From Dehalococcoidia bacterium (lineage in GTDB: Bacteria; Chloroflexota; Dehalococcoidia; Lucifugimonadales; UBA2985): a DNA stretch of 64,000 nucleotides. Within the stretch, counting starts at the first letter, position 1, and the number at the start of each line of letters is the position of its first letter. A program made the position numbers and the translations under genes. The stretch covers positions 428,902 through 492,901 of the forward strand of contig OZ242025.1 in NCBI GenBank assembly GCA_965204895.1. Reading direction: 5' to 3'. The notes under the pieces are model-generated. The model had not been told where the DNA came from and did no database searches. It saw nothing but the letters and a program-made list of their open reading frames with translations. Of this stretch, positions 10,153-53,729 are shown piece after piece.

Positions 10153-11967
10153 TTATTGCGGCAAGAGTGCACTCGGGTCTCTTCCAGCGTCGGCCTCTAC
10201 CACGAGTTCATTTGCAAATGCTTCATAAAGAAGCTCTTTGGGATTGACCCCGGGAATCAACTCCGACGAAGCCCTAAAGAAGTCCCTCCGATCCATAGTT
10301 TCTTCTCCACCGGAGATATTCTGGGCTCGCCGAAAAGCTAACATGCATGCCGTATTAGCAATCCTTGCTAAAGAAGGGAGCCAATCATCAATAGAGTCTA
10401 TCAGTTTTCGGGTCAGAGTTACACTAAAATACTGCGTCCTCGTTAGTTTGTTACTCCTTCTGAGAAAGTCGGCTATCAGCCAGATTGTATGGAATGTTGA
10501 GAATTTCTCCCTTTTCGCAGAGTTTTTTTGCAAGTAGTCTAGAATACGCCACGGAAGCAACAACTGGCGTGCCATGACACCCGAAGGAAAGGCCGTTTCA
10601 TAGGTCTCTCGTTCATCTTTATTTCTGATACCCTCAAAAACAAAGCGGACGCGGTCTAATGCCAAATCAGGTTTGCCAAGGAATGCAAGCGAAGCCTGAG
10701 CCAAAGGTTGCACCTCTATATGACGCTTCCGCTTGCCCACCAAGAACTTGGTCTTCTCGGTGTCGTCTAGAACCATCTTCCAGTATCCTTGCTTCACCTC
10801 ATAGTACCAAGGAGGGGTTATTTCTTCCCTAAATTCGTATTGCAAGATCGTCTGCTGTTTTTCAAAAGCTGCATAGTCTCGCGCTCTTAGCGCAGTTTGG
10901 GAATTTGAGGCAATAGCAATTTTTTCTGCAAGTACCCTGTCAGCCACGGTAAGCTTAATGTCAACCAGCGTTTCTTCAAGCTCTTCGAGAGGTCTATCCT
11001 TTTCCGCTAGAGTCACAGTGGTCTGACAGCCATTCACAATCTGGAGATTCTTGACCGTGAGCCGTTTGCCATCCAAGATGAAGTCGTCACACGTAGCACA
11101 AAGACCGTTGTTGAGAAGATGAAACCGCTTGCGTCCTTCTTCTGTTTTCAATTCCGATGCGATGTTCCTGTTAACCTTTGCATTGGCAAGCGGGCCTCTC
11201 GGATTTAGTGAGAAGAGACGGTAGCCCAAGCCCGGCGTATTGAAGATGCGTACTATTTCGCTGGCCCTTACCGTTACTCTAAGTGACCTTTGTTCATCCC
11301 CTTCAACGGGATGCTGCATACGCTCGTCTATTGTCAATTCGGCTGTAGTATCACCTCCAGTGCGATAACCGGCGCGGTAGTCCTCAAACCGCTGTGCCAA
11401 ATCCTTTTCATTTAGCAACTCGAGAGTAAAGCTACAATCAATCGTCTCACCGTTTCTCAAGACCAATGTGCGCTCTAACTGACGCCTAGATTGAGCAAAG
11501 CGAACAGCTGCTTGTTCAAAACCACCCCTTGCTGCAAACACCAACCGTAGTGTGTAGCCATCTCCTTCCACGAGATTAAGTCTCTCGTTCAATTGCAACG
11601 ATAGTTCCTTCACCGATTCATTGTTGCTAGCATCCACTCGTGAGGGGTTCAGTACCTCTTCAGGAGCCATCCAAAATTTTGAGACCTTGCCTTCTGTAGC
11701 ACGGCTCTTGCCGCCTTGGCTTTGGAACAGAAGTATGTTTTCGTCTTGATCATCTATAAAGTAGCCGTCAATCTCGAGATCGCCACTCTTGTCTATACCC
11801 GTGATCTCAATTATCCGTCGGTCTGCCACATTCGGGTCCGGAAGAGTGAGTTGGAGTGCCGCATGTCGAAAGGCCTGGGTTTCGTCTTCCTCATAATACG
11901 TAGCGGCCAATTCGCTAACATGGCTACGGAAGCTCTCTAGAATGCGTCTTTCTTCACTCGAAGCCAT
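10153..11967 (-). CDS. AIPR-family protein (abortive infection phage resistance family)
   Basis: 604 aa. Recognised family motifs LLNNGLCATCDDF and LQIVNGCQTTVTL, and typical length. GC is about 42-45% in spot counts. Confidence 0.75.
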   Translation of the reverse strand: MASSEERRILESFRSHVSELAATYYEEDETQAFRHAALQLTLPDPNVADRRIIEITGIDKSGDLEIDGYFIDDQDENILLFQSQGGKSRATEGKVSKFWMAPEEVLNPSRVDASNNESVKELSLQLNERLNLVEGDGYTLRLVFAARGGFEQAAVRFAQSRRQLERTLVLRNGETIDCSFTLELLNEKDLAQRFEDYRAGYRTGGDTTAELTIDERMQHPVEGDEQRSLRVTVRASEIVRIFNTPGLGYRLFSLNPRGPLANAKVNRNIASELKTEEGRKRFHLLNNGLCATCDDFILDGKRLTVKNLQIVNGCQTTVTLAEKDRPLEELEETLVDIKLTVADRVLAEKIAIASNSQTALRARDYAAFEKQQTILQYEFREEITPPWYYEVKQGYWKMVLDDTEKTKFLVGKRKRHIEVQPLAQASLAFLGKPDLALDRVRFVFEGIRNKDERETYETAFPSGVMARQLLLPWRILDYLQKNSAKREKFSTFHTIWLIADFLRRSNKLTRTQYFSVTLTRKLIDSIDDWLPSLARIANTACMLAFRRAQNISGGEETMDRRDFFRASSELIPGVNPKELLYEAFANELVVEADAGRDPSALLPQ

Positions 11968-32091: not shown

Positions 32092-32742
32092 CTACCCTGC
32101 CAGCCTGCGTATGTCTCCCAGGACGAGGTCCATGTCCCACTCGACTGCGCCGTCGTAGTAGGCCCTGATCTGCCCTGCGCCGTCCACCAGCGCCAGCCTG
32201 TTTGTGTGGACAACGTCGTACTCGTGGATGTGAGTGGAACCGTCCGTATGCAGATGCTCAAACGTCTTTGGGACCTCCGTGAAGGTCAGCTTGAAGCCGT
32301 TGGTCACAATGCGCCGCATCTCCTCCGGCGACCCGGTCAGAAAGCGCCACGCGTCGTGGTCTGCGTCGTGGGCACTGGCGTAGGCCAGGAGCACGTCCGG
32401 GGTGTCGTACTCCGGGTCTACGGTGAAGGAGAGCAGCGCCACCTCACCCCCCAGAAGGCCGTCCTCCTCCAGCCTTTCCTGCACCTGCGCCATGCGCGGA
32501 GTCAGCGTGGGGCAGAACTCGACGCAGTTGGTGAAGACGAAGTTTGCCAGGACAACCCTGCCCCGGAGGTCGTTATCGGTGACCGTGCGACCCAGCTGGT
32601 CGGTCAGGGAGAAAGAGGGAGACTCGTAGTATACGGGCAGGTCGTCGGCTTCAGAGCCGCAGGCAAGGGCGGTAACAAAGATGGTGCACATCGCACCAAG
32701 CAGCCATCGCTTCGATTTCGGAACAACCGAATCAAACCACAA
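32092..32742 (-). CDS. SCO1/SenC family copper chaperone (lipoprotein)
   Basis: Thioredoxin-like CVEFCPTLT (CxxxC) plus a distal His. Lipobox ALAC. Last gene of the oxidase cluster. Confidence 0.85.
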   Translation of the reverse strand: MWFDSVVPKSKRWLLGAMCTIFVTALACGSEADDLPVYYESPSFSLTDQLGRTVTDNDLRGRVVLANFVFTNCVEFCPTLTPRMAQVQERLEEDGLLGGEVALLSFTVDPEYDTPDVLLAYASAHDADHDAWRFLTGSPEEMRRIVTNGFKLTFTEVPKTFEHLHTDGSTHIHEYDVVHTNRLALVDGAGQIRAYYDGAVEWDMDLVLGDIRRLAG

Positions 32743-33646
32743 AAGCGCGGTCCAGGACCAGGCCCAGGAAAAGGGCCGCCAGGTACACGGTGGAGTACTT
32801 GAACAGCCTCATGGCCCACACCCGCTCCAGTGAGCGGTACACCTTTACGGAGAGGGCCACAAGGGGGACGCCCAGCAGGACGGCCGTTGCCAGGTACAGC
32901 GTCCCGAACAGGCCCAGCACAGCGGGCAGAGCGGTCACGAGAACAAGCAGGACGGAGTAGAGAAGGATGTGCCGCGCCGTCTCCCTGTCGCCCAGCACCA
33001 CCGGGAGCATGGGAACGCTGACCTTTCTGTAGTCCTCCTTGAACACCATTATCAGGGCGTAGGCGTGGGGGGGCGTCCAGAAGAAGACTATGAGGAACAG
33101 GAAGATGGAGGACATGTCTATGCTGCCGGATACGGCAACCCAGCCAATCAGGGGCGGAAATGCGCCGGCCGCGCCTCCCACAACGACGTTCTGGTGAGTC
33201 CGCCGCTTGAGGTAGACGCTGTAGATCAGCACGTAGTACAGCCAGGCGATGGCCCCCAGCACGGCTACAAGGGGGCTTATCAGGAGAAACAGAGGCATGG
33301 AGAGCAGGCTGATGGCTATGCTGAATATCAACACGTGCCTTGGTGCTATCTGCCTCAGGGGCAGAGGCCGTTTGCGGGTGCGCTCCATCTCCACGTCCAA
33401 CTCCCGGTCAAGGTAGCAGTTAAGAGCGCCCGCGCCACCGGAGCACAGGTAGCCACCAAGCAGGATGATGGCCGCAGCGCTCCAGGCCACCGTGCCGCCC
33501 CCGGCAGCCAGCATCCCCGCGGCCGTGCTTATGAGGAGCAGCACGGCTATCCTGGGCTTGGTGAGCCGGAAGTACACCCTGGCAGTGGACAGCAGGCGCG
33601 GGTAAAGCGCCGTCGCCGGTTCGCTGGACGTGAAGTCGGTCTTCAC
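32732..33646 (-). CDS. ctaB: protoheme IX farnesyltransferase (heme O synthase)
   Basis: UbiA-family polytopic protein in the oxidase operon. NCYLDRELD and WTPPH motifs. Confidence 0.9.
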   Translation of the reverse strand: MKTDFTSSEPATALYPRLLSTARVYFRLTKPRIAVLLLISTAAGMLAAGGGTVAWSAAAIILLGGYLCSGGAGALNCYLDRELDVEMERTRKRPLPLRQIAPRHVLIFSIAISLLSMPLFLLISPLVAVLGAIAWLYYVLIYSVYLKRRTHQNVVVGGAAGAFPPLIGWVAVSGSIDMSSIFLFLIVFFWTPPHAYALIMVFKEDYRKVSVPMLPVVLGDRETARHILLYSVLLVLVTALPAVLGLFGTLYLATAVLLGVPLVALSVKVYRSLERVWAMRLFKYSTVYLAALFLGLVLDRAFVV

Positions 33647-34599
33647 CGGGCTACTCCGTAGTTGGCTCTGCCGGCCGTCATGACGGACTCCTCAGATTCC
33701 GACGCGCCGTTCCACAAGCGCCCCACAAGCAGCATGGCGACGGCGAAGAAGAGGATGGCGGCAACCAGGTGCATGGCGCGTATCTCCGTTGGCAGGCGCA
33801 ACAGCACGTTGCCGAGGCCAAGGGCCACCTGCGACCCCAGCACCGCGCTCATCAGCCACGTGAACTGAACGATGCCTGGTTGACCGACGCCTATCGCCCT
33901 TATCACGGCCACGACCATGAAGACTACCGCCAGGAAGGCGGCAACCCTGTGTATCATGTGAATCCAGTGTACTGTTGCCATGTCCCCTACCGATATTCCG
34001 CACAAGGGTATGGAGGTGCACGCCAGTGAAGCCCCCTCCGTGCGGGTCACGTATGCCCCCGTGAGTATAACAAGAAAAGTGACGGCTGCCAGCGCCACTA
34101 TCAGCCGCCGGAAACGGTCCCATCGGTTGTCCCAGACCACGTCTACCGACTGGGGCCTGAAGGGTTCGACTGTCCTGGCGACTATGACCGCCAGTACACC
34201 CACCAGGCTTGTGGCGATGGCGGTGTGTATCAGGGCCACGCCCGGACTCAACTCCGACAGCACGGTGTACGCCCCGAACCCGGCCTGTATCACTATTAGC
34301 ACGCCGGACACCAGCGCCAGGTGCATTGTGACGCCCCGCGCCCCGTAGCGTGCGAAGCCGGAAACGACCATGAGAAAGGTGAACACCCCGGCCACGGCCG
34401 CCGAAAGTCGGTGGAGGTACTCCAGCCAGGAGGTCAGCTCCCAGGGCGGTATCACCTGTCCGTAGCACAGGGGCCAGTCGGGGCAGCCAAGGCCGGAGCC
34501 GGTGACGCGCACGACTCCCCCCATCGTCACCGCCATAAGCGCTGTGACAAGGGAGGCCACGGCCATCGCCGGAAACATTCGCCTGAGACTTGCGCCCAT
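33643..34599 (-). CDS. ctaA: heme A synthase (COX15/CtaA)
   Basis: GSGLGCPDWPLCYG motif, paired His-containing TM helices, and a 4-nt overlap with ctaB. Confidence 0.8.
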   Translation of the reverse strand: MGASLRRMFPAMAVASLVTALMAVTMGGVVRVTGSGLGCPDWPLCYGQVIPPWELTSWLEYLHRLSAAVAGVFTFLMVVSGFARYGARGVTMHLALVSGVLIVIQAGFGAYTVLSELSPGVALIHTAIATSLVGVLAVIVARTVEPFRPQSVDVVWDNRWDRFRRLIVALAAVTFLVILTGAYVTRTEGASLACTSIPLCGISVGDMATVHWIHMIHRVAAFLAVVFMVVAVIRAIGVGQPGIVQFTWLMSAVLGSQVALGLGNVLLRLPTEIRAMHLVAAILFFAVAMLLVGRLWNGASESEESVMTAGRANYGVAR

Positions 34600-34640
34600 C
34601 GTCTAGCTCTGACTTCTCTCCACTACGGTATTGGTCATCA

Positions 34641-35516
34641 TCACAGGGTTGGCTGAAACTCCTGGATCTCTTCCCGCTCCTGCCTGTAGAACCACTTGAG
34701 GAACAGGATGCAGATGGCGGGCAGGAAGACGGAGAGCCAGGATACCTTCATTATTATCCCGCCCATTTGCTGGTCTGCCAACGGGGAAATGCCCCAAATC
34801 CTGGGCGTGGTCTCGTAGAAGGAGTACATCACGTCGTTGGAGAAGGTTAGGGCGGCGAACAGTGGGGTCTGGGAGATGGACAGGGCCACCAGGTAGAGTA
34901 TCTGCGCCGGGTAGGATATGCGCGGCAGCTCCGGCAGGGGGCTCAACACGGGCCACCACGCTATCACGGCAGCCGACATGAACAGAAGGTGCTCCAGGAT
35001 GTGCACCGGGTGCTCGCGCAGCGCGCCCTCGTAGAAGATGGGGAAGTGCCACAAGTTCAGGATGATGTTGAAGATGAGAAAGGCCACAAGGGGCTTGGTC
35101 AGGAAGCGCCCTGCCCTCAGCACAAGGCCATTGCTCACCAGGGGACGCAGCAGCCAGCCCGGTGTCCCGATCAGCAGCAGAGGCGGCACAACCAGCGTAA
35201 TCAGCGAGTGCTGCACCATGTGGGCGCTGAACAGGTAGTTGTCGCTCAGCTCGTGGATGGGGCCGGCCAGCGAGAAGAGCATGACGCCCACGGCCGTCAG
35301 GAAGGAGATCACCTGCCATCGAGTGGGCTTGACCACGTCGGCCCACACCAGGCGTCCCCTGAGAGGCCCCACGTACAGGAGGTACAGCCCGGCGAACAGC
35401 AGCAGGCCGGAGTAGAGGTCTGTGTGCCAGTGCCACTCCCACCAGGAAAAGCTCTCCTGATACCGATTAGTCTGGGCGAAGATGGACGCCATTGTGTCAG
35501 AAGCTACGTGCCACAT
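34641..35516 (-). CDS. ctaG: cytochrome c oxidase assembly factor CtaG (caa3 type, membrane)
   Basis: Polytopic protein with HMVQHSLITLVVPPLLLIGTP, typical of Caa3_CtaG. Confidence 0.8.
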   Translation of the reverse strand: MWHVASDTMASIFAQTNRYQESFSWWEWHWHTDLYSGLLLFAGLYLLYVGPLRGRLVWADVVKPTRWQVISFLTAVGVMLFSLAGPIHELSDNYLFSAHMVQHSLITLVVPPLLLIGTPGWLLRPLVSNGLVLRAGRFLTKPLVAFLIFNIILNLWHFPIFYEGALREHPVHILEHLLFMSAAVIAWWPVLSPLPELPRISYPAQILYLVALSISQTPLFAALTFSNDVMYSFYETTPRIWGISPLADQQMGGIIMKVSWLSVFLPAICILFLKWFYRQEREEIQEFQPTL

Positions 35517-35600: not shown

Positions 35601-36377
35601 CTAGGGGGTAACCTCAAAGGTCCCGAACATGGTGGCGTTGTGGCCCGGGAAGGTGCACACGAACTGGTAGGTTCCCGCCTCCGGCGCCGTGAAGGTGACC
35701 TGGGCGGACTCCCCCGGGCTGATCAGGTTCACGCTGGCTACCACGTTGGGGTCGTCCGGGCCGATCCAGTTGACAGGATCCACCAGCCCTGCGGTGGCAA
35801 CGTCGTCCTTGGTGCCGTCCTGCACCAGCACCCAGTTGTGCTGCTGGGTGACGGCGTTGTTGGTGAACCTCACGGTAACCTCTGCGCCGGCAGCCGCCGT
35901 CATGGAATCGGTAGTGAACACGAACTCGTCGCTGCTGGCGGAGCCGATCTCATGGGTCGGCGCGGCCATAGCGGCGTCAGCGGTAGTGCCGGTTGTAGTA
36001 TCGGTGGTTGTGTCAGTGTCGTGGGCGACCGTATCGGTCTCCTCCGGCACCGCAACGACGATCCTTTCACCGGAGACAATGGCGAACAGGGCCATGAGCG
36101 CGAGGATGACGGTCGTCGCCAGTAGCAGCCCGCCCACGAAGAACCCGGAGAAGAGCCGGTGGTCGAATTTCAGGTGCATGTAGAACATCCCCACCAGCGC
36201 GAACTTGACGGCGGAGAGGAGAACAAAAGCGGGTATAATGGTGGATTTCAAGCCCGGAGCGTAGTCCGGCACGTAGAAGATACCGAACTCAATGGCCGTA
36301 ATGATGGCCAGTATCGAAGCTATCTTCGCGTAGGTTGCCGGAGTGGGATGGCCGGCCTCGTGGGCGCTACTCTGCAT
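35601..36377 (-). CDS. cytochrome c oxidase subunit IV (CtaF/COX4_pro-like) fused to an azurin/auracyanin-like type-1 copper domain
   Basis: N-terminus: 3 TM segments with VKFALVGMFYMHLKFD. A Thr/Asp-rich linker follows. C-terminus: QQHNWVLV ... FVCTFPGHNATMFGTFEV (His, Cys-x4-His-x4-Met ligand set). Confidence 0.8.
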   Translation of the reverse strand: MQSSAHEAGHPTPATYAKIASILAIITAIEFGIFYVPDYAPGLKSTIIPAFVLLSAVKFALVGMFYMHLKFDHRLFSGFFVGGLLLATTVILALMALFAIVSGERIVVAVPEETDTVAHDTDTTTDTTTGTTADAAMAAPTHEIGSASSDEFVFTTDSMTAAAGAEVTVRFTNNAVTQQHNWVLVQDGTKDDVATAGLVDPVNWIGPDDPNVVASVNLISPGESAQVTFTAPEAGTYQFVCTFPGHNATMFGTFEVTP

Positions 36378-36422: not shown

Positions 36423-37037
36423 TCACTTGCCGAACACACCTATCAGATAAACCGCGGTGAAGATGACAATCCACACGATGTCCACAAAGTGCCAGTACAG
36501 GGCGGCTAAGTCCACGCTCAAACCCTCATCGGGGGTCAGGTCGCCCTTGAAGGAATACCCAAAGAGCGAGACGAGCCAGACCACTCCGACGGTGACGTGG
36601 GCACCGTGGAAGCCCGTCAGCGTGAAGAAGGTGCTCCCGAACAGGTTGGTGCGCGGCGTCAGATGACCGTGAACGGCGAAGTGCCTGAACTCAAAGACCT
36701 GGAAACCCAGGAAGGTGGCTCCAAGGAACGCCGTGCAGAGTATCCAGATGCGGAAGTTCCTGACGTTGCCCCTGCGTATGTTGGCATAAGCCATCACCAT
36801 CGAGAAACTGCTCATCAGCAGGACGAAGGTGCTTACCGTGGTAGTGGGTATATCCAGAACATCGGCCGGGGTTGGCCCGCTCACGCTCTGGCCGTAGTAG
36901 ATCAGATACGTGGCTATCAGAGAGCCAAAGAACATGCACTCAGAGCCAAGAAAGACCCAAATGAGCATCTTCCGGTGGTCAATGCCGGTTGTCGTCTCGT
37001 GTTCCGGGGCGTGCTCCATGGCTTGAGCGTGTTCCAC
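36423..37037 (-). CDS. ctaE: cytochrome c oxidase subunit III
   Basis: 204 aa with the typical subunit III TM pattern (HGAHVTVGVVWL, YWHFVDIVWI). Confidence 0.9.
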   Translation of the reverse strand: MEHAQAMEHAPEHETTTGIDHRKMLIWVFLGSECMFFGSLIATYLIYYGQSVSGPTPADVLDIPTTTVSTFVLLMSSFSMVMAYANIRRGNVRNFRIWILCTAFLGATFLGFQVFEFRHFAVHGHLTPRTNLFGSTFFTLTGFHGAHVTVGVVWLVSLFGYSFKGDLTPDEGLSVDLAALYWHFVDIVWIVIFTAVYLIGVFGK

Positions 37038-37054: not shown

Positions 37055-38926
37055 CTAGTGCTCGCTGGGCTCCGATGCCGGTTCCATAGCCCAGGCGTAT
37101 ATTCCAACCATTGTTATCGCCACGCCAACTATAGCGACGATAGCGCCCGCCACCTGGCCGGGCTCGTGGAATACCATGCCGTACCCGGAGACGGCCAGGC
37201 CGACGGCGGCGACCAGGGGCCAGTACGACGGGCTGGGCATGTGGATGCCGTGTCCTTCGTCTCCGTGATGCTCTTCGTCGTCGCTGGCTCCCTGCGGGAC
37301 AGCGTGGCCGTTGGCGTACTTCTGCTCCCAGAAGGCGTCCCGCCCGTGCACTGTGGGAATGGTGGCGAAGTTGTACTCCGGCGGAGGCGAGGCGATGGAC
37401 CACTCCAGTGTCCGGCCATCCCAGGGGTCGTCTCCTGCGCGCTCGCCTTTCTTAAGGCTCCAGAAGAAGTTGTGCAGGAATATCAGGACACCAAGGACGA
37501 TGATGAACGTGCCGCCCGTGGCTACCAGGTTCCAGAGGTCCCAACCCATTTCGGACTCGTAAGTGGGCTGGCGGCGAGGCATCCCGTCCATGCCCAGGAA
37601 GTGCATGGGGAAGAAGGCTATGTTGAAGCCTATGAACGTGACCCAGAAGTTGAGCTTGCCTATGCCCTCGTTCAGCAGCTTGCCGGTGGCCTTGGGGAAC
37701 CAGTAGTAGATGCCTGAGAACACGGCGAATATGCTGCCACCGAACAGGACGTAGTGTATGTGGGCCACGATGAAGTAGGTGTCCTGCTGCTGGGCGTCGG
37801 ATGGCGCTATGGAGTGCATCACTCCGCTCAGACCGCCGATGATGAACACGAATATGAAACCGATCGCATACAGCATCGACGTGGAAAGACTGATAGAGCC
37901 TCCCCACATTGTGCCTATCCAGTTGAATATCTTGATGCCGGTGGGTATGGCAATGGCCATTGTCGTCAGGGCAAAGACGGAGTTAGCCACCGGCCCCAGG
38001 CCCACGGTGAACATGTGGTGGCTCCAGACCGCCCACCCCATGAAGCCGATGGTTATGCCGGAGAGCACCACTACGGGATAGCCGTACAGGGGCTTGCGGG
38101 AGTATGTGGGCAGTACCTCCGATATGATGCCCATTGCCGGCAGAATCAGGATGTACACCTCCGGGTGCCCGAACACCCAGAAGAGGTGCTGCCACAGCAC
38201 AACGTCAGCGCCGGCGTTGACGTTGAAGAAGTTCATGCCAAACTCGCGGTCAAAGTAGAGCTCAATCAGTCCTACGGTGATGACCGGGAAGGCGGTTATC
38301 AAAAGGAAGGAGGTCACCAATGTCATCCAGATGAAAACGGGCATCCGCATCAGGGTCATGCCCGGAGCCCTCATGTTGATGATGGTGACAATGAAGTTGA
38401 GGGCGGCGGCCACGGAGGAGACTCCCAGGACGCCGAGGCCCAGCAGGTAGAACTCCATGCCGTTGCCGGGGTTTGCGCCGGGCCCCGTCAGGGGCGCGTA
38501 GGCGAACCAACCGGCGTTGGGCGAACCGCCCAGGAGCCACCCGGACTGAAGCAGGATGGCGCCGAAGAGGAATACCCAGTAGCTGAAGGCGTTGAGCCGG
38601 GGGAACGCCACGTCCCTCGCGCCTATCATCAGAGGCACTACCAGGTTGAAGAAGGCAGCGCTGAGGGGCATGACCGCCAGGAATATCATCGTGAGGGCGT
38701 GCATGGTGAACAGCTGGCTGAACACCTCAGGGCTGACTAGGTCAAACTCAGGCCGGTGCAACTGAATCCGCATGACGGTGGCTTCAATTCCGCCAATCAG
38801 GAAGAAAATGAAGGCGGTCACCCCGTACAGTGCGCCGATCTTCTTGTGATCAACGGTTGTGATCCAGCCCCACAGCCCCGTGGTGCTGGTCGGTCTCTGA
38901 AGCACTCCTAGCGTCGTAGCCATCAC
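37055..38926 (-). CDS. ctaD: cytochrome c oxidase subunit I
   Basis: 623 aa. WFFGHPEVYILILP-type motif (LFWVFGHPEVYILILPAMG) and the HHMF and HFHYV-type (VAHIHYVLF) His ligands. Confidence 0.95.
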   Translation of the reverse strand: MMATTLGVLQRPTSTTGLWGWITTVDHKKIGALYGVTAFIFFLIGGIEATVMRIQLHRPEFDLVSPEVFSQLFTMHALTMIFLAVMPLSAAFFNLVVPLMIGARDVAFPRLNAFSYWVFLFGAILLQSGWLLGGSPNAGWFAYAPLTGPGANPGNGMEFYLLGLGVLGVSSVAAALNFIVTIINMRAPGMTLMRMPVFIWMTLVTSFLLITAFPVITVGLIELYFDREFGMNFFNVNAGADVVLWQHLFWVFGHPEVYILILPAMGIISEVLPTYSRKPLYGYPVVVLSGITIGFMGWAVWSHHMFTVGLGPVANSVFALTTMAIAIPTGIKIFNWIGTMWGGSISLSTSMLYAIGFIFVFIIGGLSGVMHSIAPSDAQQQDTYFIVAHIHYVLFGGSIFAVFSGIYYWFPKATGKLLNEGIGKLNFWVTFIGFNIAFFPMHFLGMDGMPRRQPTYESEMGWDLWNLVATGGTFIIVLGVLIFLHNFFWSLKKGERAGDDPWDGRTLEWSIASPPPEYNFATIPTVHGRDAFWEQKYANGHAVPQGASDDEEHHGDEGHGIHMPSPSYWPLVAAVGLAVSGYGMVFHEPGQVAGAIVAIVGVAITMVGIYAWAMEPASEPSEH

Positions 38927-39008: not shown

Positions 39009-40127
39009 TCACTTCAGGCTCAGGAGATAGGCCACCAGTTCCGTGATCTCCGTATCCGTGAGAGCCTGGTCCGGGTCGTAGTAGACCTGAGCGTCCCTGG
39101 ACATGTAGTTGCCCGGCTTCACCTGGTTGGGGTCTTCAAGCCACTCCCTCAGGTTCTCGGCGTTCAGCTCCCTGATGCCCGCCGCCATGGTGCTGCGGCT
39201 GGCCAGGTGGGTCAGATTGGGGCCCTTGCTGATCCTGAAGCCTTCCCGTGTCTCGTAGGCCTTGTTGAGCTCGTCCTTGTCAGGCAGCTCCACAACGCCG
39301 GAGATTGAGTGGCACAGGATGCAGCCGCTTGTCCTGAAGACGTTCAGCCCCGCCTTGGGCAGAATGTCGTCGTAGTCGTCGCCGGGAGTGGGCGCGTCCG
39401 CCAACTGGGCTTGCGTCCACGCCTCGTAGTCCTCCTGGGTGTCCACGGTGACGCGGAACCTCATCCAGGCGTGGGCCTCGCCGCAGTGCTCGGCGCACTG
39501 TCCGTAATACTCGCCGGGGTTGTCTCCCTGGAACCACATGGTGAGGTTCTTGCCGGGTATGATGTCCAGCTTGCCGGCCAGCTTGGGAATCCAGAAGCTG
39601 TGGAGCACGTCGCTTGAGGTCATGTTTACCTCAATCGGCGTATCCTCCGGCACGTGAAACTCGTTGGCGGTCTTCACCCCGGAGTCCGGGTACTCTATCT
39701 CCCACCACCACTGGTGGGCTGTCACGTTCACCTGCAGGACATCTCCCTCAGGGGTGTTGGAGACGTAGAACTGGGTTAGCACCGTTGGCACTGCAACTAT
39801 CGCCAGCACTATGGCCGGGGCGATGGTCCATGCGATTTCAAGTTTGGTGTTGCCGTGGGTCTGCTCCGGTATCGAGTCGTCGCCTGGCTTCCGGCGGAAG
39901 CGGAACACAGTGTACAGCAGTCCACCGCCCACGACGATCATGACGAACATCGCTGCCCAGAAGATTATCCAGAAGAGCTCCATCTGTCTCTCGGCCACGG
40001 GGCCGTGAGGGTCGAAGGTGGACTGGGGATGGCCGGGGGAAGTAAACTGGCAACCCGTCAGAAGGACAACGCCAAGGATTGTAACTAGGGAAGTGAATAA
40101 GACTACCGATCGGTGTTTTGAAGTCAC
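39009..40127 (-). CDS. ctaC: cytochrome c oxidase subunit II with C-terminal cytochrome c domain (caa3 type)
   Basis: Lipobox LLTGC. CuA site HSFWIP...CAEHCGEAHAWM. Heme c motif CILCHS. Confidence 0.9.
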   Translation of the reverse strand: MTSKHRSVVLFTSLVTILGVVLLTGCQFTSPGHPQSTFDPHGPVAERQMELFWIIFWAAMFVMIVVGGGLLYTVFRFRRKPGDDSIPEQTHGNTKLEIAWTIAPAIVLAIVAVPTVLTQFYVSNTPEGDVLQVNVTAHQWWWEIEYPDSGVKTANEFHVPEDTPIEVNMTSSDVLHSFWIPKLAGKLDIIPGKNLTMWFQGDNPGEYYGQCAEHCGEAHAWMRFRVTVDTQEDYEAWTQAQLADAPTPGDDYDDILPKAGLNVFRTSGCILCHSISGVVELPDKDELNKAYETREGFRISKGPNLTHLASRSTMAAGIRELNAENLREWLEDPNQVKPGNYMSRDAQVYYDPDQALTDTEITELVAYLLSLK

Positions 40128-40374: not shown

Positions 40375-41214
40375 CTATACCCCCAGGAAGGCGCGGGTCA
40401 CCTCTATGAACTCCTCCGGCTTGTCCACGGGCACCACGTGGCCGGCGTCCTCCACGTCCACGTTGACGAACAGCGGGTTGGCCTTGCACATGCGCTCAAT
40501 GATGTCGTCCGAGAGCAGCGGGCTGCCCAGGCCGCGCACCTCCATGATGGGGCACTTGATGGCCTCAAGGCTCCGCCAGTAGCGGTCTATGGACTCCTGG
40601 CTCTCCATGTCGGGCAGGGGCACGGTCAACAGCAGCGGGTCGGCCTTCCACGTCCACTTGCCGTCGTCGCGCTGCTTCATCCGGTCCTCCAGGTCGCTCC
40701 GCAGGCGGGCGTCCGTGGCCCAGGGATTGCCGGCCCGCGCCCACTCGACTGCCTCGTCGAAGCTGTCGAACTCCATCGGCGTCGGCGGGCGTGTGCCTCT
40801 CAGCCGCCGGGATTCCTCACTGGACTCCGGCCCGATGTCCACGATGACGACCCTCTCCACCTTGTCCTGGTGCTGCGGGGTGTACAGCAGGCTGTTCCAC
40901 CCGCCCATGGACAGGCCGACCAGGGTGACCTTCTCAAAGCCGAACTCGTCCACAAAGGCGGCCAGGTCCGACACGAACTTCTCCCGCTCGTAGCCGTCGC
41001 CGGCCCACTCGCTGCCGCCGTGCCCGCGCTGGTCAAGCGTAAAGACGTGGTAGTGATCTGACATGAACTCCGCAAACTCGTCCCAGATGTGGGCCTGTCC
41101 CGAGTGGCCGTGCATACAGATCATGGGCGGCTTGCCCTCTGTACCCCAGTCAAAGTACCGGAGCCGGACGTTGTTAACGGTGATGAACTTCTCTTGCGCC
41201 TTAACTGTGGTCAT
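40375..41214 (-). CDS. alpha/beta hydrolase
   Basis: Only the C-terminal 279 aa of the 655-aa track ORF look real. Starts MTTVKAQEKF. HGHSG oxyanion region, nucleophile elbow GLSMGG, and a C-terminal His (DAGHVV). Confidence 0.85.
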   Translation of the reverse strand: MTTVKAQEKFITVNNVRLRYFDWGTEGKPPMICMHGHSGQAHIWDEFAEFMSDHYHVFTLDQRGHGGSEWAGDGYEREKFVSDLAAFVDEFGFEKVTLVGLSMGGWNSLLYTPQHQDKVERVVIVDIGPESSEESRRLRGTRPPTPMEFDSFDEAVEWARAGNPWATDARLRSDLEDRMKQRDDGKWTWKADPLLLTVPLPDMESQESIDRYWRSLEAIKCPIMEVRGLGSPLLSDDIIERMCKANPLFVNVDVEDAGHVVPVDKPEEFIEVTRAFLGV

Positions 41215-41406
41215 GGCGTCCTCCTGTATCTGTTCAGTCTTGCTATCGCGCCCCCGTCCCAGACGCGCCGGAGGCGCTGTCATTGTAACAGCCCTCAGGC
41301 CCCGCCGCCAGACCGCCCAATTGTTAACAGGCAACTGGGGCTTTGTGATAGAATTCCTATCATTCCATCCCCGTATGGCTAAACTCGCCAAATAGGCGGA
41401 GGTCAA

Positions 41407-42210
41407 ATGCAGCGCACGGATCCCAATGTCTCCACCCGCACACTCATCGGCCAGCTGAACTCCGACATCTCGGAGTACACCCGGGGCTGCGCGGCCCTGG
41501 CCCTGGGCCAGGCCAGGGAGAAGCGCGCCGTGGACGACCTGGTCAAGGCGCTGTCGGACGAGTCCGCCTGGGTGCGAGGCTGGGCCGCATACGCCCTGGG
41601 CGAGATCCGGGAGAACCGCACGCTGAACGCCATCTGCGACGCCCTTGGCGACGATGACCTGTGGGTGCGCCAGCAGGCCGCCGACGCCGTGGTGCGCTTC
41701 GACAGCCACCTGGCCAACAGCGCCCTGCGCAGGGTGCTCCAGGGCGAAAACTCCATGGCAAAGGCGTGGTCGCTCCACGCCATCGCCCAGCGCGGCGACC
41801 CGGATTCGGCCCTTGACGTGGTGGCCTTCCTTGAGGACGGAAGCCGCGCCGTGAGGCTGAGCGCAGTGCGCACCCTCTACCGGCTGGGCCAGACCTCTGC
41901 CGTTGCGCCCGTCAGGATGTTCATGCGCGACCCGGACGAGCACCTGCGGGGCGCGGCCGCCTTCGCCCTTGGCGCGCTGGGAGACCACGAAAGCACTTCC
42001 GCCCTTACACTGGCGCTGACCGACCCCACGCCCTGGGTCAGGCGAAACGCCGCCTGGTCCCTGCTGGAGCTTGGGGAGTCCCTGCGCCTTGTGGCCTCCA
42101 TGATCGATGACACGGACGCTGGCGTGAGGTGCTTCGCGGTCAACGCCCAGGAAATGCTGCGGAAGGCGGAGGAGGCAGGGGAGGCCGAGGGGGTGCCTCA
42201 GTCTGAGTGA
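41407..42210 (+). CDS. HEAT-repeat (PBS-lyase type) protein
   Basis: Reiterated xxVRxxAAxALGxxxD units (VRGWAAYALGEI, VRQQAADAVV, VRLSAVRTL, LRGAAAFALGAL, VRRNAAWSL, VRCFAVNA). Confidence 0.8.
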   Translation: MQRTDPNVSTRTLIGQLNSDISEYTRGCAALALGQAREKRAVDDLVKALSDESAWVRGWAAYALGEIRENRTLNAICDALGDDDLWVRQQAADAVVRFDSHLANSALRRVLQGENSMAKAWSLHAIAQRGDPDSALDVVAFLEDGSRAVRLSAVRTLYRLGQTSAVAPVRMFMRDPDEHLRGAAAFALGALGDHESTSALTLALTDPTPWVRRNAAWSLLELGESLRLVASMIDDTDAGVRCFAVNAQEMLRKAEEAGEAEGVPQSE

Positions 42211-42225
42211 TAGGTCAGTGCCCTC

Positions 42226-42330
42226 ATCCTGACCTTCCCCCGCATGCCGGGGGAAGGGGTTTTGAGACACGGGCTGGCTTCCTCGCTTTTCCCGCTCATA
42301 GCCTGCACCGTACTTGATACGGGGGTGAGC
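42226..42330. repeat. REP-like hairpin cluster
   Basis: ccttcccccgcatgccgggggaagg (42231-42259) and cccgctcatagcctgcaccgtacttgatacggggg (42291-42326). Confidence 0.65.
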
Positions 42331-42364
42331 CCGTCGAACCATGTGAGAGGGGCAACCGCCCCAA

Positions 42365-49566: not shown

Positions 49567-49941
49567 CTATTCCACCCTGAGCCGCACGGGGATAAGCCCC
49601 TCGCGCCCGTAGAACCGCTCCATGATCTCTGAGCCGAACTTGGCAAGAAACAGGTCCCGGATAGCGGCCCTTTCGGACTCATGGTCTTCAACAGGCTCCA
49701 TTGTGACAGCGTGGGTCTCGCCTGCTATCTCCACGCTTGCAGAGGGGTTGGCCTGGAGGTTCCTGTACCAGTGGTTGGGTTGGCCGTCCTCAGTCGATCC
49801 CGCCAAGAGGCAGATGCAGCCGTCGTCATAGGCGAACCAAAGCTCCACCCTGCGCGGCAGCCCCGAGCTGCGGCCCGTGGTGGTGATGTGCAGGTTGTTG
49901 GTGGTGTGAATTGGAGACTGTCTGTCGTGTTCGGATGTCAT
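49567..49941 (-). CDS. DUF385 / deazaflavin (F420)-dependent nitroreductase family protein
   Basis: ORF trimmed to the ATG at 49941 (MTSEHDR...). LHITTTGRSSGLPRRVELWF...HWYRNLQANPSASVEI matches the family pattern. Confidence 0.7.
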   Translation of the reverse strand: MTSEHDRQSPIHTTNNLHITTTGRSSGLPRRVELWFAYDDGCICLLAGSTEDGQPNHWYRNLQANPSASVEIAGETHAVTMEPVEDHESERAAIRDLFLAKFGSEIMERFYGREGLIPVRLRVE

Positions 49942-49957
49942 GAGGCACCGCCGTCGG

Positions 49958-52573
<2,616 letters not shown>

Positions 52574-52588
52574 TGTCTACTACTTCTC

Positions 52589-53542
52589 CTATTCAAACAT
52601 GGCTCCAACGGACAGGCCCTCGTGAATTCTGCGGATGGCCTCTCCCAGGAGCGGCGCAACGGACAGCACCGTCACCTTGCCGTTCGTCTGTTTCTCCTCC
52701 GGCAGCGGCAGGGTGTCCGTGGCAACAAGCTCCTTGATGGGGCTTTGGGCAATCCTGTCTGCGCCCGGCCCAGACAGGACCAGGTGGGTGCAGCAGGAGT
52801 AGATGTCCTTCGCCCCGGCCTTCTGCAGGGCCTCCACTGCCGACATCAGGGATCCCGCGGTATCGATTTCGTCGTCAAAGGTGAGGGCGTTCATCCCCTC
52901 AACGTCGCCAATGATGTTGAGGCTCTCTGTGCTGTCGTCGTTGCCGACGCGGCGCTTCTCGATGATCGCCAGGGGCACGCCAAGGCGAGCGGCCATGTCC
53001 CTGGCCCGCTTGCTGATGCCGATGTCCACGGACACGACAACCAGGTTCTCAATGGCCTTGTCCTGGAAGTAGCGGGCAAGAATGGGCAGGGCCGTCAGCT
53101 CGTCCACCGGGATGTTGAAGAAGCCCTGTATCTGGCCGGCGTGGAGGTCCATGGTCAGGACGCGGTCGGCCCCGGCCACGCTCAGCAGGTCGGCCACCAG
53201 ACGCGCCGTTATTGGCACCCGGGGCTGATCCTTCTTGTCCGTGCGCCCATAGGCGTAGTAGGGCGTGACGGCCGTGATGCGGCCCGCGGACGCCCTCTTG
53301 GCGGCGTCGATCATTATCAGGAGCTCCATGATGTGGTCGTTGACCGGGTAGGCAAAGGGCTGGACGAGGAAGATGTCCCGCTGCCGTATGTTCTCCTGGA
53401 ACTGGACAAAGGTGTTGTCGTTGCTGAACTTGAAGACGTTGGACTCACCCTTGGGAATTCCAAGGTACTCGCTTATATCTATTGCCAGGGAGGCGTCCGC
53501 CCTCCCGGAGAACACCATAGGCGGTTCGTCACGACGCAGCAT
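52589..53542 (-). CDS. prs: ribose-phosphate pyrophosphokinase
   Basis: YYAYGRTDKKD and the PRPP-binding loop VVVSVDIGISKRA; DDEIDTAGS. Confidence 0.95.
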   Translation of the reverse strand: MLRRDEPPMVFSGRADASLAIDISEYLGIPKGESNVFKFSNDNTFVQFQENIRQRDIFLVQPFAYPVNDHIMELLIMIDAAKRASAGRITAVTPYYAYGRTDKKDQPRVPITARLVADLLSVAGADRVLTMDLHAGQIQGFFNIPVDELTALPILARYFQDKAIENLVVVSVDIGISKRARDMAARLGVPLAIIEKRRVGNDDSTESLNIIGDVEGMNALTFDDEIDTAGSLMSAVEALQKAGAKDIYSCCTHLVLSGPGADRIAQSPIKELVATDTLPLPEEKQTNGKVTVLSVAPLLGEAIRRIHEGLSVGAMFE

Positions 53543-53729
53543 TTCATCCCCTTGACGCTGGTTTGTCGAGCAGAAGAACCGGGACGCCCTGCGCCCCTTC
53601 TCTTCTAGGGTCGATTATAGCATAGTAGGGGCGCGACCCAAAAACGCCGGAATCGCGTTGTCCGCCGCAATTTCGGCGCGCAATAGTAGGGGAAGCAGGC
53701 TATAATTCATGGAGAGGCATCAGTGACCC

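What the first reader, a model, noticed from the sequence alone, without database searches (positions are those of the whole stretch)
35601..36377. Oxidase subunit IV fused to an azurin/auracyanin-like blue-copper domain inside the caa3 operon
Residues 1-105 look like the small prokaryotic subunit IV (CtaF/COX4_pro: three TM helices, VKFALVGMFYMHLKFD). After a Thr/Asp-rich linker comes a cupredoxin with an azurin-like ligand set (..QQHNWVLV.. and FVCTFPGHNATMFG: His, Cys, His, Met). With three TM helices the copper domain would face the same side as CuA and the fused cytochrome c of subunit II (CILCHS). Auracyanins are thought to carry electrons to the terminal oxidase in Chloroflexi. A covalently tethered blue-copper donor on the oxidase itself would be an unusual hard-wired electron entry route, and I am not aware of a description of this fusion.
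Basis: partly seen in the sequence, partly recalled or inferred. Interest (0 to 1): 0.6.

Follow-up and report, generated by a model that had tools for sequence, protein, structure and literature searches.

The report
Oxidase subunit IV fused to auracyanin
A marine Dehalococcoidia (SAR202-type) bacterium has a blue-copper electron carrier (auracyanin-like) fused by a flexible linker to the small subunit IV of its cytochrome c oxidase. The fusion is real and conserved, I found no published description, and it probably keeps the electron donor tied to the enzyme.

Summary
Window 35601-36377 (minus strand) is one 258-aa ORF with three parts:
- a CyoD-type three-helix oxidase subunit IV (Pfam COX4_pro);
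- a disordered linker of about 37 residues;
- an auracyanin-like type-1 copper domain. Its closest solved structure is auracyanin A (2AAN: 43% identity, TM 0.86). The ligands are His180, Cys241, His246 and Met250.

It is the only subunit IV gene in a complete ctaC(+cyt c)-ctaD-ctaE-IV-ctaG-ctaA-ctaB-sco1 operon.

It is not an artefact. More than 110 protein clusters and about 40 species-representative Dehalococcoidia, SAR202 or Chloroflexota genomes, closed chromosomes included, keep the fusion in the same operon position. The ligands are intact in 143 of 144 copper domains.

Three comparative findings support an electron-carrier role:
- Related oxidases carry a monohaem cytochrome c, not the cupredoxin, on the same subunit IV. 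Others carry two cupredoxins or nothing.
- The same genomes encode lipoprotein auracyanin paralogues up to about 70% identical.
- In at least two genomes that also have the fusion, alternative complex III ends in an ActE cytochrome c fused to the same kind of cupredoxin.

Best reading: a tethered, mobile copper relay that feeds the haem c/CuA entry site of the oxidase. Electron transfer is inferred, not shown. It is a new variant of a known principle, apparently undescribed.

The parts
35601..36377 (-). Whole gene: subunit IV - linker - cupredoxin fusion (258 aa plus TAG stop)
   Evidence: ORF list; Pfam COX4_pro + Copper-bind; 98% identical orthologue called as one gene in MAG DAOUJW010000003.1
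36385..36390 (-). Shine-Dalgarno-like GAGGAG, 7 nt upstream of the ATG
   Evidence: Read directly from the sequence
36069..36377 (-). Subunit IV domain, residues 1-103; TM helices at 36273-36341 (res 13-35), 36174-36248 (res 44-68) and 36075-36161 (res 73-101)
   Evidence: Pfam PF03626; AF2 helices; domain profile matches CyoD 6WTI_D, E 0.002; invariant H10, P11, Y16, E30, K58, F59, M67, H68, L69, D72
35958..36068 (-). Thr/Asp-rich disordered linker, residues 104-140
   Evidence: pLDDT below 50 for residues 104-135; length 31-81 aa (median 43) and variable sequence across 41 fusions
35604..35957 (-). Auracyanin-like type-1 copper (cupredoxin) domain, residues 141-258
   Evidence: phmmer vs PDB: auracyanin A 2AAN, E 7e-26; Foldseek 2AAN TM 0.86, rmsd 1.9 A, 43% id; Pfam PF00127
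35838..35840 (-). His180, N-terminal copper ligand (QQHNW motif)
   Evidence: Aligned to the HNW histidine of auracyanins and azurin; invariant
35628..35657 (-). Copper-binding loop C241-T-F-P-G-H246-N-A-T-M250 (Cys, His and Met ligands)
   Evidence: Aligned to CTVPGHYPLM of auracyanin A and CTFPGHSALM of azurin; invariant; intact in 143/144 domains
36423..37037 (-). ctaE, oxidase subunit III (204 aa)
   Evidence: Pfam COX3
37055..38926 (-). ctaD, subunit I (623 aa), A1-type GHPEV motif at 38156-38170, with a C-terminal two-helix extension
   Evidence: Pfam COX1, E 6e-157; motif
39009..40127 (-). ctaC, subunit II with CuA site (CAEHCGEAHAWM, 39462-39497) and fused cytochrome c (CILCH, 39309-39323); lipobox LLTGC at the N-terminus
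   Evidence: Pfam COX2_TM, COX2, Cytochrom_C; motifs
32092..35516 (-). Assembly genes downstream in the same operon: Caa3_CtaG 34641-35516, ctaA 33643-34599, ctaB 32732-33646, sco1 32092-32742
   Evidence: Pfam; same order in L001-L006 and L081

Best explanation
The gene encodes the only subunit IV of an A1-type caa3 cytochrome c oxidase. A flexible linker of about 37 residues extends its last transmembrane helix on the outer (P) side of the membrane and ends in an auracyanin-type blue-copper domain.

The proposed mechanism is as follows. The copper domain acts as a tethered one-electron shuttle that swings on its linker. It picks up electrons from the quinol-oxidising complex or from a lipid-anchored auracyanin paralogue. 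In related genomes the quinol-oxidising complex is alternative complex III, whose ActE subunit carries the same kind of cupredoxin. The shuttle then delivers the electrons to the cytochrome c domain or CuA of subunit II, from where they pass to haem a and haem a3-CuB. Chloroflexota are generally regarded as lacking an outer membrane. Tethering would then keep the carrier from diffusing away and would raise its local concentration at the oxidase.

Shown here: the domain identities, the intact copper site, the fold, the operon position, the conservation, and the interchange with cytochrome c.

Inferred: the topology (by homology to CyoD), copper loading, the direction and partners of electron transfer, and the absence of an outer membrane (general knowledge, not tested).
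For: - Domains and fold.
- The four copper ligands are invariant in 32 diverse fusions and intact in 143/144 domains. The linker varies freely in length and sequence. This is the pattern expected for a functional redox domain on a passive tether.
- In every locus with a full-length match that holds enough upstream DNA, the fusion follows ctaC, ctaD and ctaE on the same strand, down to 38% identity. In the window no other subunit IV ORF lies between ctaE and ctaG.
- Carrier swap: in L075 the same subunit IV, in the same operon position, carries a monohaem cytochrome c (Pfam COX4_pro + Cytochrom_C). Among the 150 nearest 50%-identity cluster representatives of the IV domain, 18 are IV-cytochrome c fusions and about 6 are IV-cupredoxin fusions. 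Two unrelated folds whose shared function is one-electron carriage occupy the same position.
- The donor side carries the same module. ACIII operons (ActA, B1, B2, C, F, D) end in ActE-cytochrome c fused to an auracyanin-like cupredoxin in L067, L074, L054 and L084. L067 and L074 come from the same MAGs as the IV-cupredoxin loci L041 and L022. This fusion is itself a conserved family.
- Lipoprotein-type auracyanin paralogues about 70% identical to the fused domain exist in the same genomes (L030, L032, L033).
- Published work: auracyanin is the proposed or measured acceptor of ACIII (PMC3150298). Roseiflexus ACIII reduces both auracyanin and a monohaem cytochrome c551 (PMC10873879), which parallels the Cu/haem alternation seen here.
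Against: - No biochemical, proteomic or transcript evidence was available.
- Neither the window nor the 16-kb loci of its closest relatives (L001-L006) contain ACIII or any complex III, so the donor in this organism is unknown.
- The oxidase already has a fused cytochrome c on subunit II, so a second tethered carrier is not obviously needed.
- In solved bo3 structures subunit IV sits on the subunit III side, away from subunit II (general knowledge). Delivery therefore depends on the reach of the linker, which was not modelled.
- The positive-inside rule is weak for this sequence alone.
- A nested clade of close relatives (L064, L068, L071) has lost the domain, so it is dispensable in some lineages.
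Confidence: 0.65

Rival explanations
1. Subunit IV serves only as a convenient membrane anchor and co-expression device for an auracyanin. That auracyanin works mainly in other pathways, for example accepting electrons from extracytoplasmic dehydrogenases or donating to other reductases. It would not be a dedicated donor to its own oxidase.
For: These genomes hold many auracyanin-like paralogues with different anchors: lipoprotein, ActE, tandem and cytochrome c fusions. The long flexible linker (31-81 aa) would let the domain reach neighbouring complexes. The oxidase already owns a fused cytochrome c.
Against: The fusion partner is specifically the oxidase subunit. It sits inside the cta operon in every full-length locus that holds enough upstream DNA. 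The same position is taken by cytochrome c in relatives. Anchoring at the oxidase puts the highest local concentration exactly there.
Confidence: 0.15
2. The protein is made as a fusion, but the cupredoxin is released by proteolysis after TM3. The fusion would then be a delivery or export device for a free or loosely bound auracyanin.
For: None directly. The disordered linker would be protease-accessible.
Against: There is no lipobox cysteine after TM3 to re-anchor a released domain (sequence), whereas the free paralogues carry their own signal peptide and an LAC|G motif. If the cell lacks an outer membrane (general knowledge, not tested), a released soluble carrier would be lost.
Confidence: 0.1
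3. The cupredoxin domain is a copper-handling or assembly module, a chaperone for CuA or CuB insertion, and not an electron carrier.
For: The operon also encodes the Cu-assembly factors Sco1 and Caa3_CtaG. There is a weak NCBIfam hit to the copper-resistance cuproprotein CopI (29.8 bits, cut-off 280).
Against: The domain has a complete, invariant type-1 ligand set with the auracyanin loop spacing, and it is closest to auracyanin A. Relatives carry cytochrome c in its place, and cytochrome c cannot chaperone copper. Known CuA chaperones (PCuAC, Sco) have different folds and ligands (general knowledge).
Confidence: 0.05
4. The fusion is an assembly or sequencing artefact, that is, a lost stop or a frameshift joining two genes.
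For: One database copy (P0044) is frameshifted after QQH into Arg-rich nonsense. This shows that errors occur in these data, but in the direction of breaking the fusion.
Against: 113 of the 120 best clusters, from independent samples, have both domains. About 40 species-representative genomes, including closed long-read chromosomes such as OZ244718.1 and OZ253466.1, have one continuous ORF. There is no separate start or signal peptide for the copper domain.
Confidence: 0.01

Closest known systems
Auracyanin A/B of Chloroflexus aurantiacus and Roseiflexus auracyanin (PDB 2AAN, 1QHQ/1OV8, 6KOL)
   Same: Same fold and the same His/Cys/His/Met site, including the QQHNW and C-T-x-P-G-H-x3-M motifs. 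43% identity, TM 0.86 and rmsd 1.9 A to 2AAN. Membrane-attached carrier of Chloroflexota linked to alternative complex III (PMC3150298, PMC10873879).
   Different: Auracyanins are separate proteins anchored by a lipid or by their own N-terminal helix. Here the anchor is the three-helix subunit IV of the terminal oxidase, and the organism is a non-phototrophic Dehalococcoidia.
Prokaryotic oxidase subunit IV, CyoD/QoxD/CtaF type (Pfam PF03626; E. coli CyoD, PDB 6WTI chain D)
   Same: Three TM helices, the conserved FYMHLKFD region, and a gene directly after subunit III. The Pfam score is above its cut-off, and the domain profile matches CyoD over its full length.
   Different: Canonical members are about 100-120 aa with no extramembrane domain. 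The Bacillus caa3 subunit IV model TIGR02229 is not reached (17.5 vs 37.25 bits).
caa3-type oxidases (Thermus, Bacillus, Rhodothermus): cytochrome c fused to subunit II
   Same: The substrate-like electron carrier is covalently attached to the oxidase. This operon has that fusion as well (CtaC with CILCH).
   Different: That carrier is a haem protein on subunit II, next to CuA. Here an additional copper carrier sits on subunit IV through a long flexible linker.
Cupredoxins that associate non-covalently with terminal oxidases: AcoP of Acidithiobacillus ferrooxidans (PMC4059628, PMC10804444; the 'cup' gene before COX2, bioRxiv 10.1101/2020.03.01.968255) and sulfocyanin SoxE of the Sulfolobus SoxM supercomplex (general knowledge)
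   Same: A membrane-bound single-domain cupredoxin encoded with the oxidase genes and working at the oxidase. Pfam also gives a weak SoxE hit.
   Different: These are separate polypeptides with their own anchors, different cupredoxin subfamilies, and acidophile or archaeal lineages. None is fused to subunit IV.
Other subunit IV fusions: COX1-COX4 fusion in proteobacterial COX operons (PMC4013037); COX IV domain in ORFs with a cytochrome c domain listed in a table of Chloroflexi proteins (PMC8756737, Table A3)
   Same: They show that subunit IV takes part in gene fusions. The IV-cytochrome c architecture found here (L075, P0121, P0129 and others) matches the tabulated accessions.
   Different: Neither paper describes a cupredoxin on subunit IV or discusses a tethered-carrier function.

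Membership tests
Prokaryotic cytochrome oxidase subunit IV (Pfam COX4_pro, PF03626) | Sequence matches the family model above its gathering score | tested here: met
   41.8 bits vs cut-off 28.9, residues 20-91
Prokaryotic cytochrome oxidase subunit IV (Pfam COX4_pro, PF03626) | Three transmembrane helices, homologous to structurally solved CyoD | tested here: met
   AF2 helices 13-35, 44-68, 73-101; domain profile A2 hits 6WTI_D, E 0.002, residues 4-98. A single-sequence phmmer search found nothing.
Prokaryotic cytochrome oxidase subunit IV (Pfam COX4_pro, PF03626) | Gene located directly after subunit III in the oxidase operon | tested here: met
   ctaC-ctaD-ctaE-IV in the window and in every full-length locus that holds enough upstream DNA
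Prokaryotic cytochrome oxidase subunit IV (Pfam COX4_pro, PF03626) | Physically a subunit of the purified oxidase | not testable with these tools
   Needs purification or cryo-EM
caa3 oxidase subunit IV, Bacillus type (NCBIfam TIGR02229) | Score above the subfamily cut-off | tested here: not met
   17.5 bits vs 37.25. It should not be filed in this subfamily.
Auracyanin / azurin-type type-1 copper proteins (Pfam Copper-bind, PF00127) | Sequence matches the family model above its gathering score | tested here: met
   50.7 bits vs 21.2
Auracyanin / azurin-type type-1 copper proteins (Pfam Copper-bind, PF00127) | His, Cys, His and Met ligands with C-x4-H-x3-M spacing, aligned to solved sites | tested here: met
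   H180, C241, H246 and M250 align to the ligand motifs of 2AAN, 1OV8 and azurin; invariant; 143/144 domains intact
Auracyanin / azurin-type type-1 copper proteins (Pfam Copper-bind, PF00127) | Greek-key beta-sandwich cupredoxin fold | tested here: met
   Foldseek 2AAN TM 0.86, rmsd 1.9 A; azurins TM ~0.77; domain pLDDT mostly 80-96
Auracyanin / azurin-type type-1 copper proteins (Pfam Copper-bind, PF00127) | Binds one Cu with a blue (~600 nm) spectrum and a high midpoint potential | not testable with these tools
   Needs expression, UV-vis/EPR and redox titration
Azurin sensu stricto (NCBIfam TIGR02695 equivalog) | Score above the equivalog cut-off | tested here: not met
   61.9 bits vs 105.1. 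Auracyanin A (E 7e-26) is much closer than the azurins (E ~1e-13).
A1-type caa3 haem-copper oxidase operon | Subunit I with the GHPEV D-channel motif; subunit II with a CuA site and fused CxxCH cytochrome c; subunit III; Caa3_CtaG, CtaA, CtaB, Sco1 | tested here: met
   Pfam; motifs GHPEV, CAEHCGEAHAWM and CILCH

The most novel reading that the evidence does not exclude
These Dehalococcoidia/SAR202 bacteria run a respiratory chain with no free carrier between complex III and complex IV. Alternative complex III carries an auracyanin domain on ActE, and the caa3 oxidase carries one or two on subunit IV. Electrons would then pass by Cu-to-Cu exchange between tethered domains, possibly within an ACIII-caa3 supercomplex. 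The alternation between IV-cupredoxin and IV-cytochrome c would be a genomic copper-for-iron substitution, analogous to plastocyanin/cytochrome c6, suited to iron-poor ocean water.
Probability: 0.3. Interest if true: 0.75.

Novelty: new variant of a known kind. Interest (0 to 1): 0.55.

Why it matters
Auracyanin has long been proposed as the carrier downstream of alternative complex III in Chloroflexota. Its link to the terminal oxidase rests mostly on inference. Here two independent gene fusions place the same auracyanin module on ACIII and on the cytochrome c oxidase: ActE-cupredoxin and subunit IV-cupredoxin. This is 'Rosetta-stone' evidence for the ACIII -> auracyanin -> oxidase route.

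The fusions also define proteins that could be expressed and measured. They show that subunit IV, usually treated as an inert accessory, is used in a large uncultured marine clade as a docking anchor for interchangeable copper or haem carriers. That gives subunit IV a concrete role. It also shows how cells presumed to lack an outer membrane could retain their electron carriers.

SAR202/Dehalococcoidia are abundant in the dark ocean. A choice between copper and iron at this step may therefore matter for trace-metal ecology.

Tried and rejected
- An exact-sequence look-up of the window protein found nothing on record. The 98% identical P0001 was used in its place.
- A single-sequence phmmer search of the IV domain against PDB gave only a chance rhomboid hit. 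A profile was needed to reach CyoD.
- The positive-inside rule on the window sequence alone is inconclusive, with 1, 1 and 2 K/R in the three loop regions. Topology therefore rests on CyoD homology.
- The AFDB50 fold search, meant to find named or cultured organisms with the fusion, was unavailable.
- I looked for a second cupredoxin or any ACIII gene in the window and found none.
- I looked for ACIII next to the stand-alone cupredoxin loci. Only L054, L067 and L074 have it. The P0075-type stand-alone paralogue sits among unrelated genes.
- The NJ tree of cupredoxin domains shows fused and free domains interleaved. This is compatible with repeated duplication out of, or fusion into, the oxidase gene. 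The domain is short and the tree has no support values, so I draw no conclusion on the number of fusion events.
- The CtaD tree suggests an ancestral fusion with a nested loss. However, the loci were selected by similarity to the fusion, so unfused relatives are under-sampled.
- Literature searches on auracyanin, cupredoxin, subunit IV, CtaF, COX4, SAR202 and Dehalococcoidia found no description of the fusion. Subscription-only papers are not covered.
- A multimer model could not be run, because the structure tool takes single proteins only.

Full report
**Observation.** Window 35601-36377 holds a single 258-aa ORF on the minus strand. It starts with ATG, has a GAGGAG ribosome-binding site 7 nt upstream and ends in TAG (sequence). 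Pfam assigns residues 20-91 to COX4_pro (E 1.4e-10) and residues 146-256 to Copper-bind (E 2.6e-13), both above their curated cut-offs.

The gene is the fourth in a minus-strand operon:
- ctaC, with a CuA site and a fused CILCH cytochrome c
- ctaD, A1-type with GHPEV
- ctaE
- this gene
- Caa3_CtaG
- ctaA
- ctaB
- sco1

No other subunit IV candidate lies between ctaE and ctaG.

**Anatomy.**
- An AlphaFold2 model built on 32 homologues gives three helices (13-35, 44-68, 73-101), a stretch with pLDDT below 50 (104-135) and a confident beta-sandwich (141-257).
- A profile of the membrane domain matches E. coli CyoD (6WTI chain D) over its whole length, E 0.002. A single-sequence search had failed. 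CyoD has its N-terminus in the cytoplasm and its C-terminus in the periplasm (established topology, from general knowledge). The copper domain should therefore lie on the same side as CuA and the cytochrome c of subunit II. The positive-inside rule alone is not decisive for this sequence.
- The copper domain is closest to auracyanin A: phmmer E 7e-26, Foldseek TM 0.86, rmsd 1.9 A, 43% identity. Next come Roseiflexus auracyanin and auracyanin B, and only then the azurins (E ~1e-13).
- His180, Cys241, His246 and Met250 align with the ligand motifs of these proteins, with the auracyanin A spacing C-x4-H-x3-M.
- The azurin equivalog model and the Bacillus caa3 subunit IV subfamily model are both below cut-off. 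The protein is therefore a CyoD-type subunit IV plus an auracyanin-like cupredoxin. It is not an azurin or a CtaF in the narrow sense.

**Not an artefact, and widespread.**
- A search of 5.8 billion clustered proteins found 615 relatives. Of the best 120, 82 are IV-cupredoxin, 31 are IV-cupredoxin-cupredoxin, 6 are double cupredoxins without IV, and one has the IV domain only.
- A scan of species-representative genomes found 336 matching stretches. The 80 kept are all MAGs titled Dehalococcoidia, Chloroflexota or SAR202, apart from one titled 'uncultured bacterium'.
- The window is 98% identical to Dehalococcoidia MAG S34_281 (DAOUJW010000003.1).
- About 40 of the kept loci hold an uninterrupted fusion ORF, including closed long-read chromosomes.
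- Wherever a full-length locus holds enough upstream DNA, ctaC, ctaD and ctaE precede the fusion on the same strand, down to 38% identity of the fusion.
- The four copper ligands are invariant in a 32-sequence alignment that reaches 43% identity. They are intact in 143 of 144 copper domains; the exception has a loop one residue longer.
- The linker varies from 31 to 81 residues (median 43) and is rich in Ala, Glu, Thr and Pro.
- One database copy (P0044) is frameshifted within the copper domain. This is an error that breaks the fusion, not one that creates it.

**What relatives add.**
1. The module on subunit IV is interchangeable.
   - L064, L068 and L071 have a plain 99-119 aa subunit IV. 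Their CtaD is 77-79% identical to the window's.
   - L075 has subunit IV fused through a Pro/Thr-rich linker to a monohaem cytochrome c, with a CSTCH motif and Pfam COX4_pro + Cytochrom_C.
   - L016 has two cupredoxins in tandem.
   - An exhaustive search with the IV domain alone against 1.84 billion representatives gave, among the best 150, mostly plain subunits of about 100-150 aa. It also gave 18 IV-cytochrome c fusions (two with two haem domains) and about six IV-cupredoxin representatives.
2. The same genomes encode free auracyanin paralogues with a signal peptide, a GLAC|GGG lipobox-like site and a Pro/Thr linker. They are about 70% identical to the fused domain (L030, L032 and L033, in the same assemblies as L005, L002 and L003).
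3. In L067, L074, L054 and L084 a complete alternative complex III operon ends in an ActE-like lipoprotein cytochrome c fused to an auracyanin-like cupredoxin. The operon comprises a multihaem ActA, a molybdopterin-type ActB1, an FeS ActB2, two NrfD-type subunits and ActD. L067 and L074 come from the same MAGs as the IV-cupredoxin loci L041 and L022. The ActE-cupredoxin architecture is itself conserved: 49 of the best 108 newly listed hits have it.
4. In L059 and L065 a lipoprotein cupredoxin gene lies just downstream of a second, distant oxidase operon. This is a possible unfused counterpart.

**Mechanism.** The best-supported reading is a tethered electron shuttle.
- Subunit IV anchors an auracyanin domain on the outer face of the membrane.
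- The flexible linker lets the domain move between a donor and the haem c/CuA entry site of subunit II.
- The donor would be ACIII, through ActE or its own cupredoxin, or a lipid-anchored auracyanin.

The strongest argument is that cytochrome c replaces the cupredoxin at the same position in relatives. The two folds have nothing in common except one-electron carriage. Published work fits this picture. Auracyanin is the proposed acceptor of ACIII (PMC3150298). Roseiflexus ACIII reduces both auracyanin and a monohaem cytochrome c551 (PMC10873879). Chloroflexota are generally regarded as lacking an outer membrane (general knowledge, not tested here), and tethering would stop the carrier being lost.

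Several steps are not shown:
- copper loading;
- the redox potential;
- the direction and partners of transfer;
- whether the linker reaches subunit II, given that subunit IV sits on the subunit III side in solved bo3 structures (general knowledge).

In the window's own clade no complex III was seen in the available DNA.

**Rivals.**
- A generic anchor for an auracyanin that serves other pathways. This remains possible; it is a difference of degree.
- Proteolytic release of the domain. There is no evidence for it, and no re-anchoring cysteine follows TM3.
- A copper-chaperone role. The full type-1 site and the cytochrome c swap argue against it.
- An assembly artefact. This is excluded.

**Comparison and novelty.** Carriers fused or bound to terminal oxidases are well known. 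Examples are cytochrome c on subunit II of caa3 enzymes, AcoP in Acidithiobacillus, and sulfocyanin in the Sulfolobus SoxM complex. Subunit IV fusions to COX1 have been reported (PMC4013037). A table in PMC8756737 lists two proteins that combine a COX IV domain with a cytochrome c domain, without comment. I found no paper that describes a cupredoxin on subunit IV or the paired ActE-cupredoxin; subscription-only literature was not searchable. [quoted passage not shown] I therefore rate it a new variant of a known principle, of moderate to good interest. It gives subunit IV a concrete function, and it gives gene-fusion evidence for the ACIII-auracyanin-oxidase route in an abundant, uncultured marine clade.

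**Caveats.**
- The trees are neighbour-joining without support values.
- The loci were chosen by similarity to the fusion, so the frequency of unfused relatives is underestimated.
- The hit lists are truncated to the best 80-150.
- No multimer model could be run.

Noticed in passing
L067:101-8351 (also L074, L054, L084:1627-9993): Complete alternative complex III operon whose last gene is an ActE-like lipoprotein monohaem cytochrome c fused to an auracyanin-like cupredoxin (318-330 aa), followed by CcmH/CcmF. L067 and L074 are in the same MAGs as IV-cupredoxin loci. The fusion is a conserved family (49 fused among the best 108 hits) and appears undescribed.
   Followed up: partly
L075:7989-8816; proteins P0121, P0123, P0124, P0129, P0131, P0138, P0143, P0152, P0213, P0226, P0231, P0254: Subunit IV fused to one or two monohaem cytochrome c domains in place of a cupredoxin, in the same ctaCDE context (L075). 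At the 50%-cluster level these are more diverse than the cupredoxin version. P0126 and P0164 carry extra repeated beta-rich inserts between IV and the cytochrome.
   Followed up: partly
L016:7995-9206; P0033-P0064 group: Subunit IV followed by two tandem cupredoxin domains (~400 aa), both with full ligand sets; 31 of the best 120 clusters have this form.
   Followed up: partly
L030:7791-8354, L032, L033, L028, L034: Free auracyanin paralogues with a signal peptide, a GLAC|GGG lipobox-like site and a Pro/Thr linker. They are ~70% identical to the fused domain and sit in the same genomes as the fusion. In an unsupported NJ tree, fused and free domains interleave, which hints at repeated duplication or fusion.
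   Followed up: partly
L059:3683-8333 and L065:3525-8390: A second, distant oxidase operon (CtaD ~40% identical) with a lipoprotein cupredoxin gene a few hundred bases downstream of its ctaE-like genes. This is a possible unfused counterpart or precursor arrangement.
   Followed up: no
window 37058-37339 (-), C-terminal ~94 residues of CtaD: CtaD has a two-helix C-terminal extension (HMPSPSYWPLVAAVG...). It gives a sub-threshold hit to the actinobacterial subunit IV family PF12270 (18.6 bits, cut-off 26.9). This may be a COX1-COX4-like fusion of the kind reported in PMC4013037, so the enzyme may contain two subunit-IV-like elements.
   Followed up: partly
window 10153-11967 (-): 604-aa AIPR (abortive-infection phage-resistance) protein. 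Its third-position GC is 0.49, against 0.8-0.9 for neighbouring genes, so it is probably horizontally acquired defence DNA.
   Followed up: no
window 49940-53608 (+): 1222-aa ORF with no Pfam match and intermediate GC3 (0.64). It is unclear whether this is a real gene.
   Followed up: no
proteins P0155, P0159, P0189 and P0172, P0187, P0204, P0255: Subunit IV domains preceded by conserved N-terminal extensions of ~120-180 residues (MVLDSK... and MQDLII... types). At least P0172 also carries a C-terminal cytochrome c. Their function is unknown.
   Followed up: no
protein P0044: A 253-aa database copy, 92% identical in the IV domain, that runs into Arg-rich nonsense after QQH. It is a frameshift error in one contig, and it explains why Pfam sees only COX4_pro there.
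   Followed up: yes
window 41407-42210 (+): HEAT-repeat (PBS-lyase-like) protein on the opposite strand, upstream of the cta operon. It lies within the same span as the upstream part of the long minus-strand ORF 40375-42342; the alpha/beta-hydrolase orthologue called in L081 is only 281 aa.
   Followed up: no
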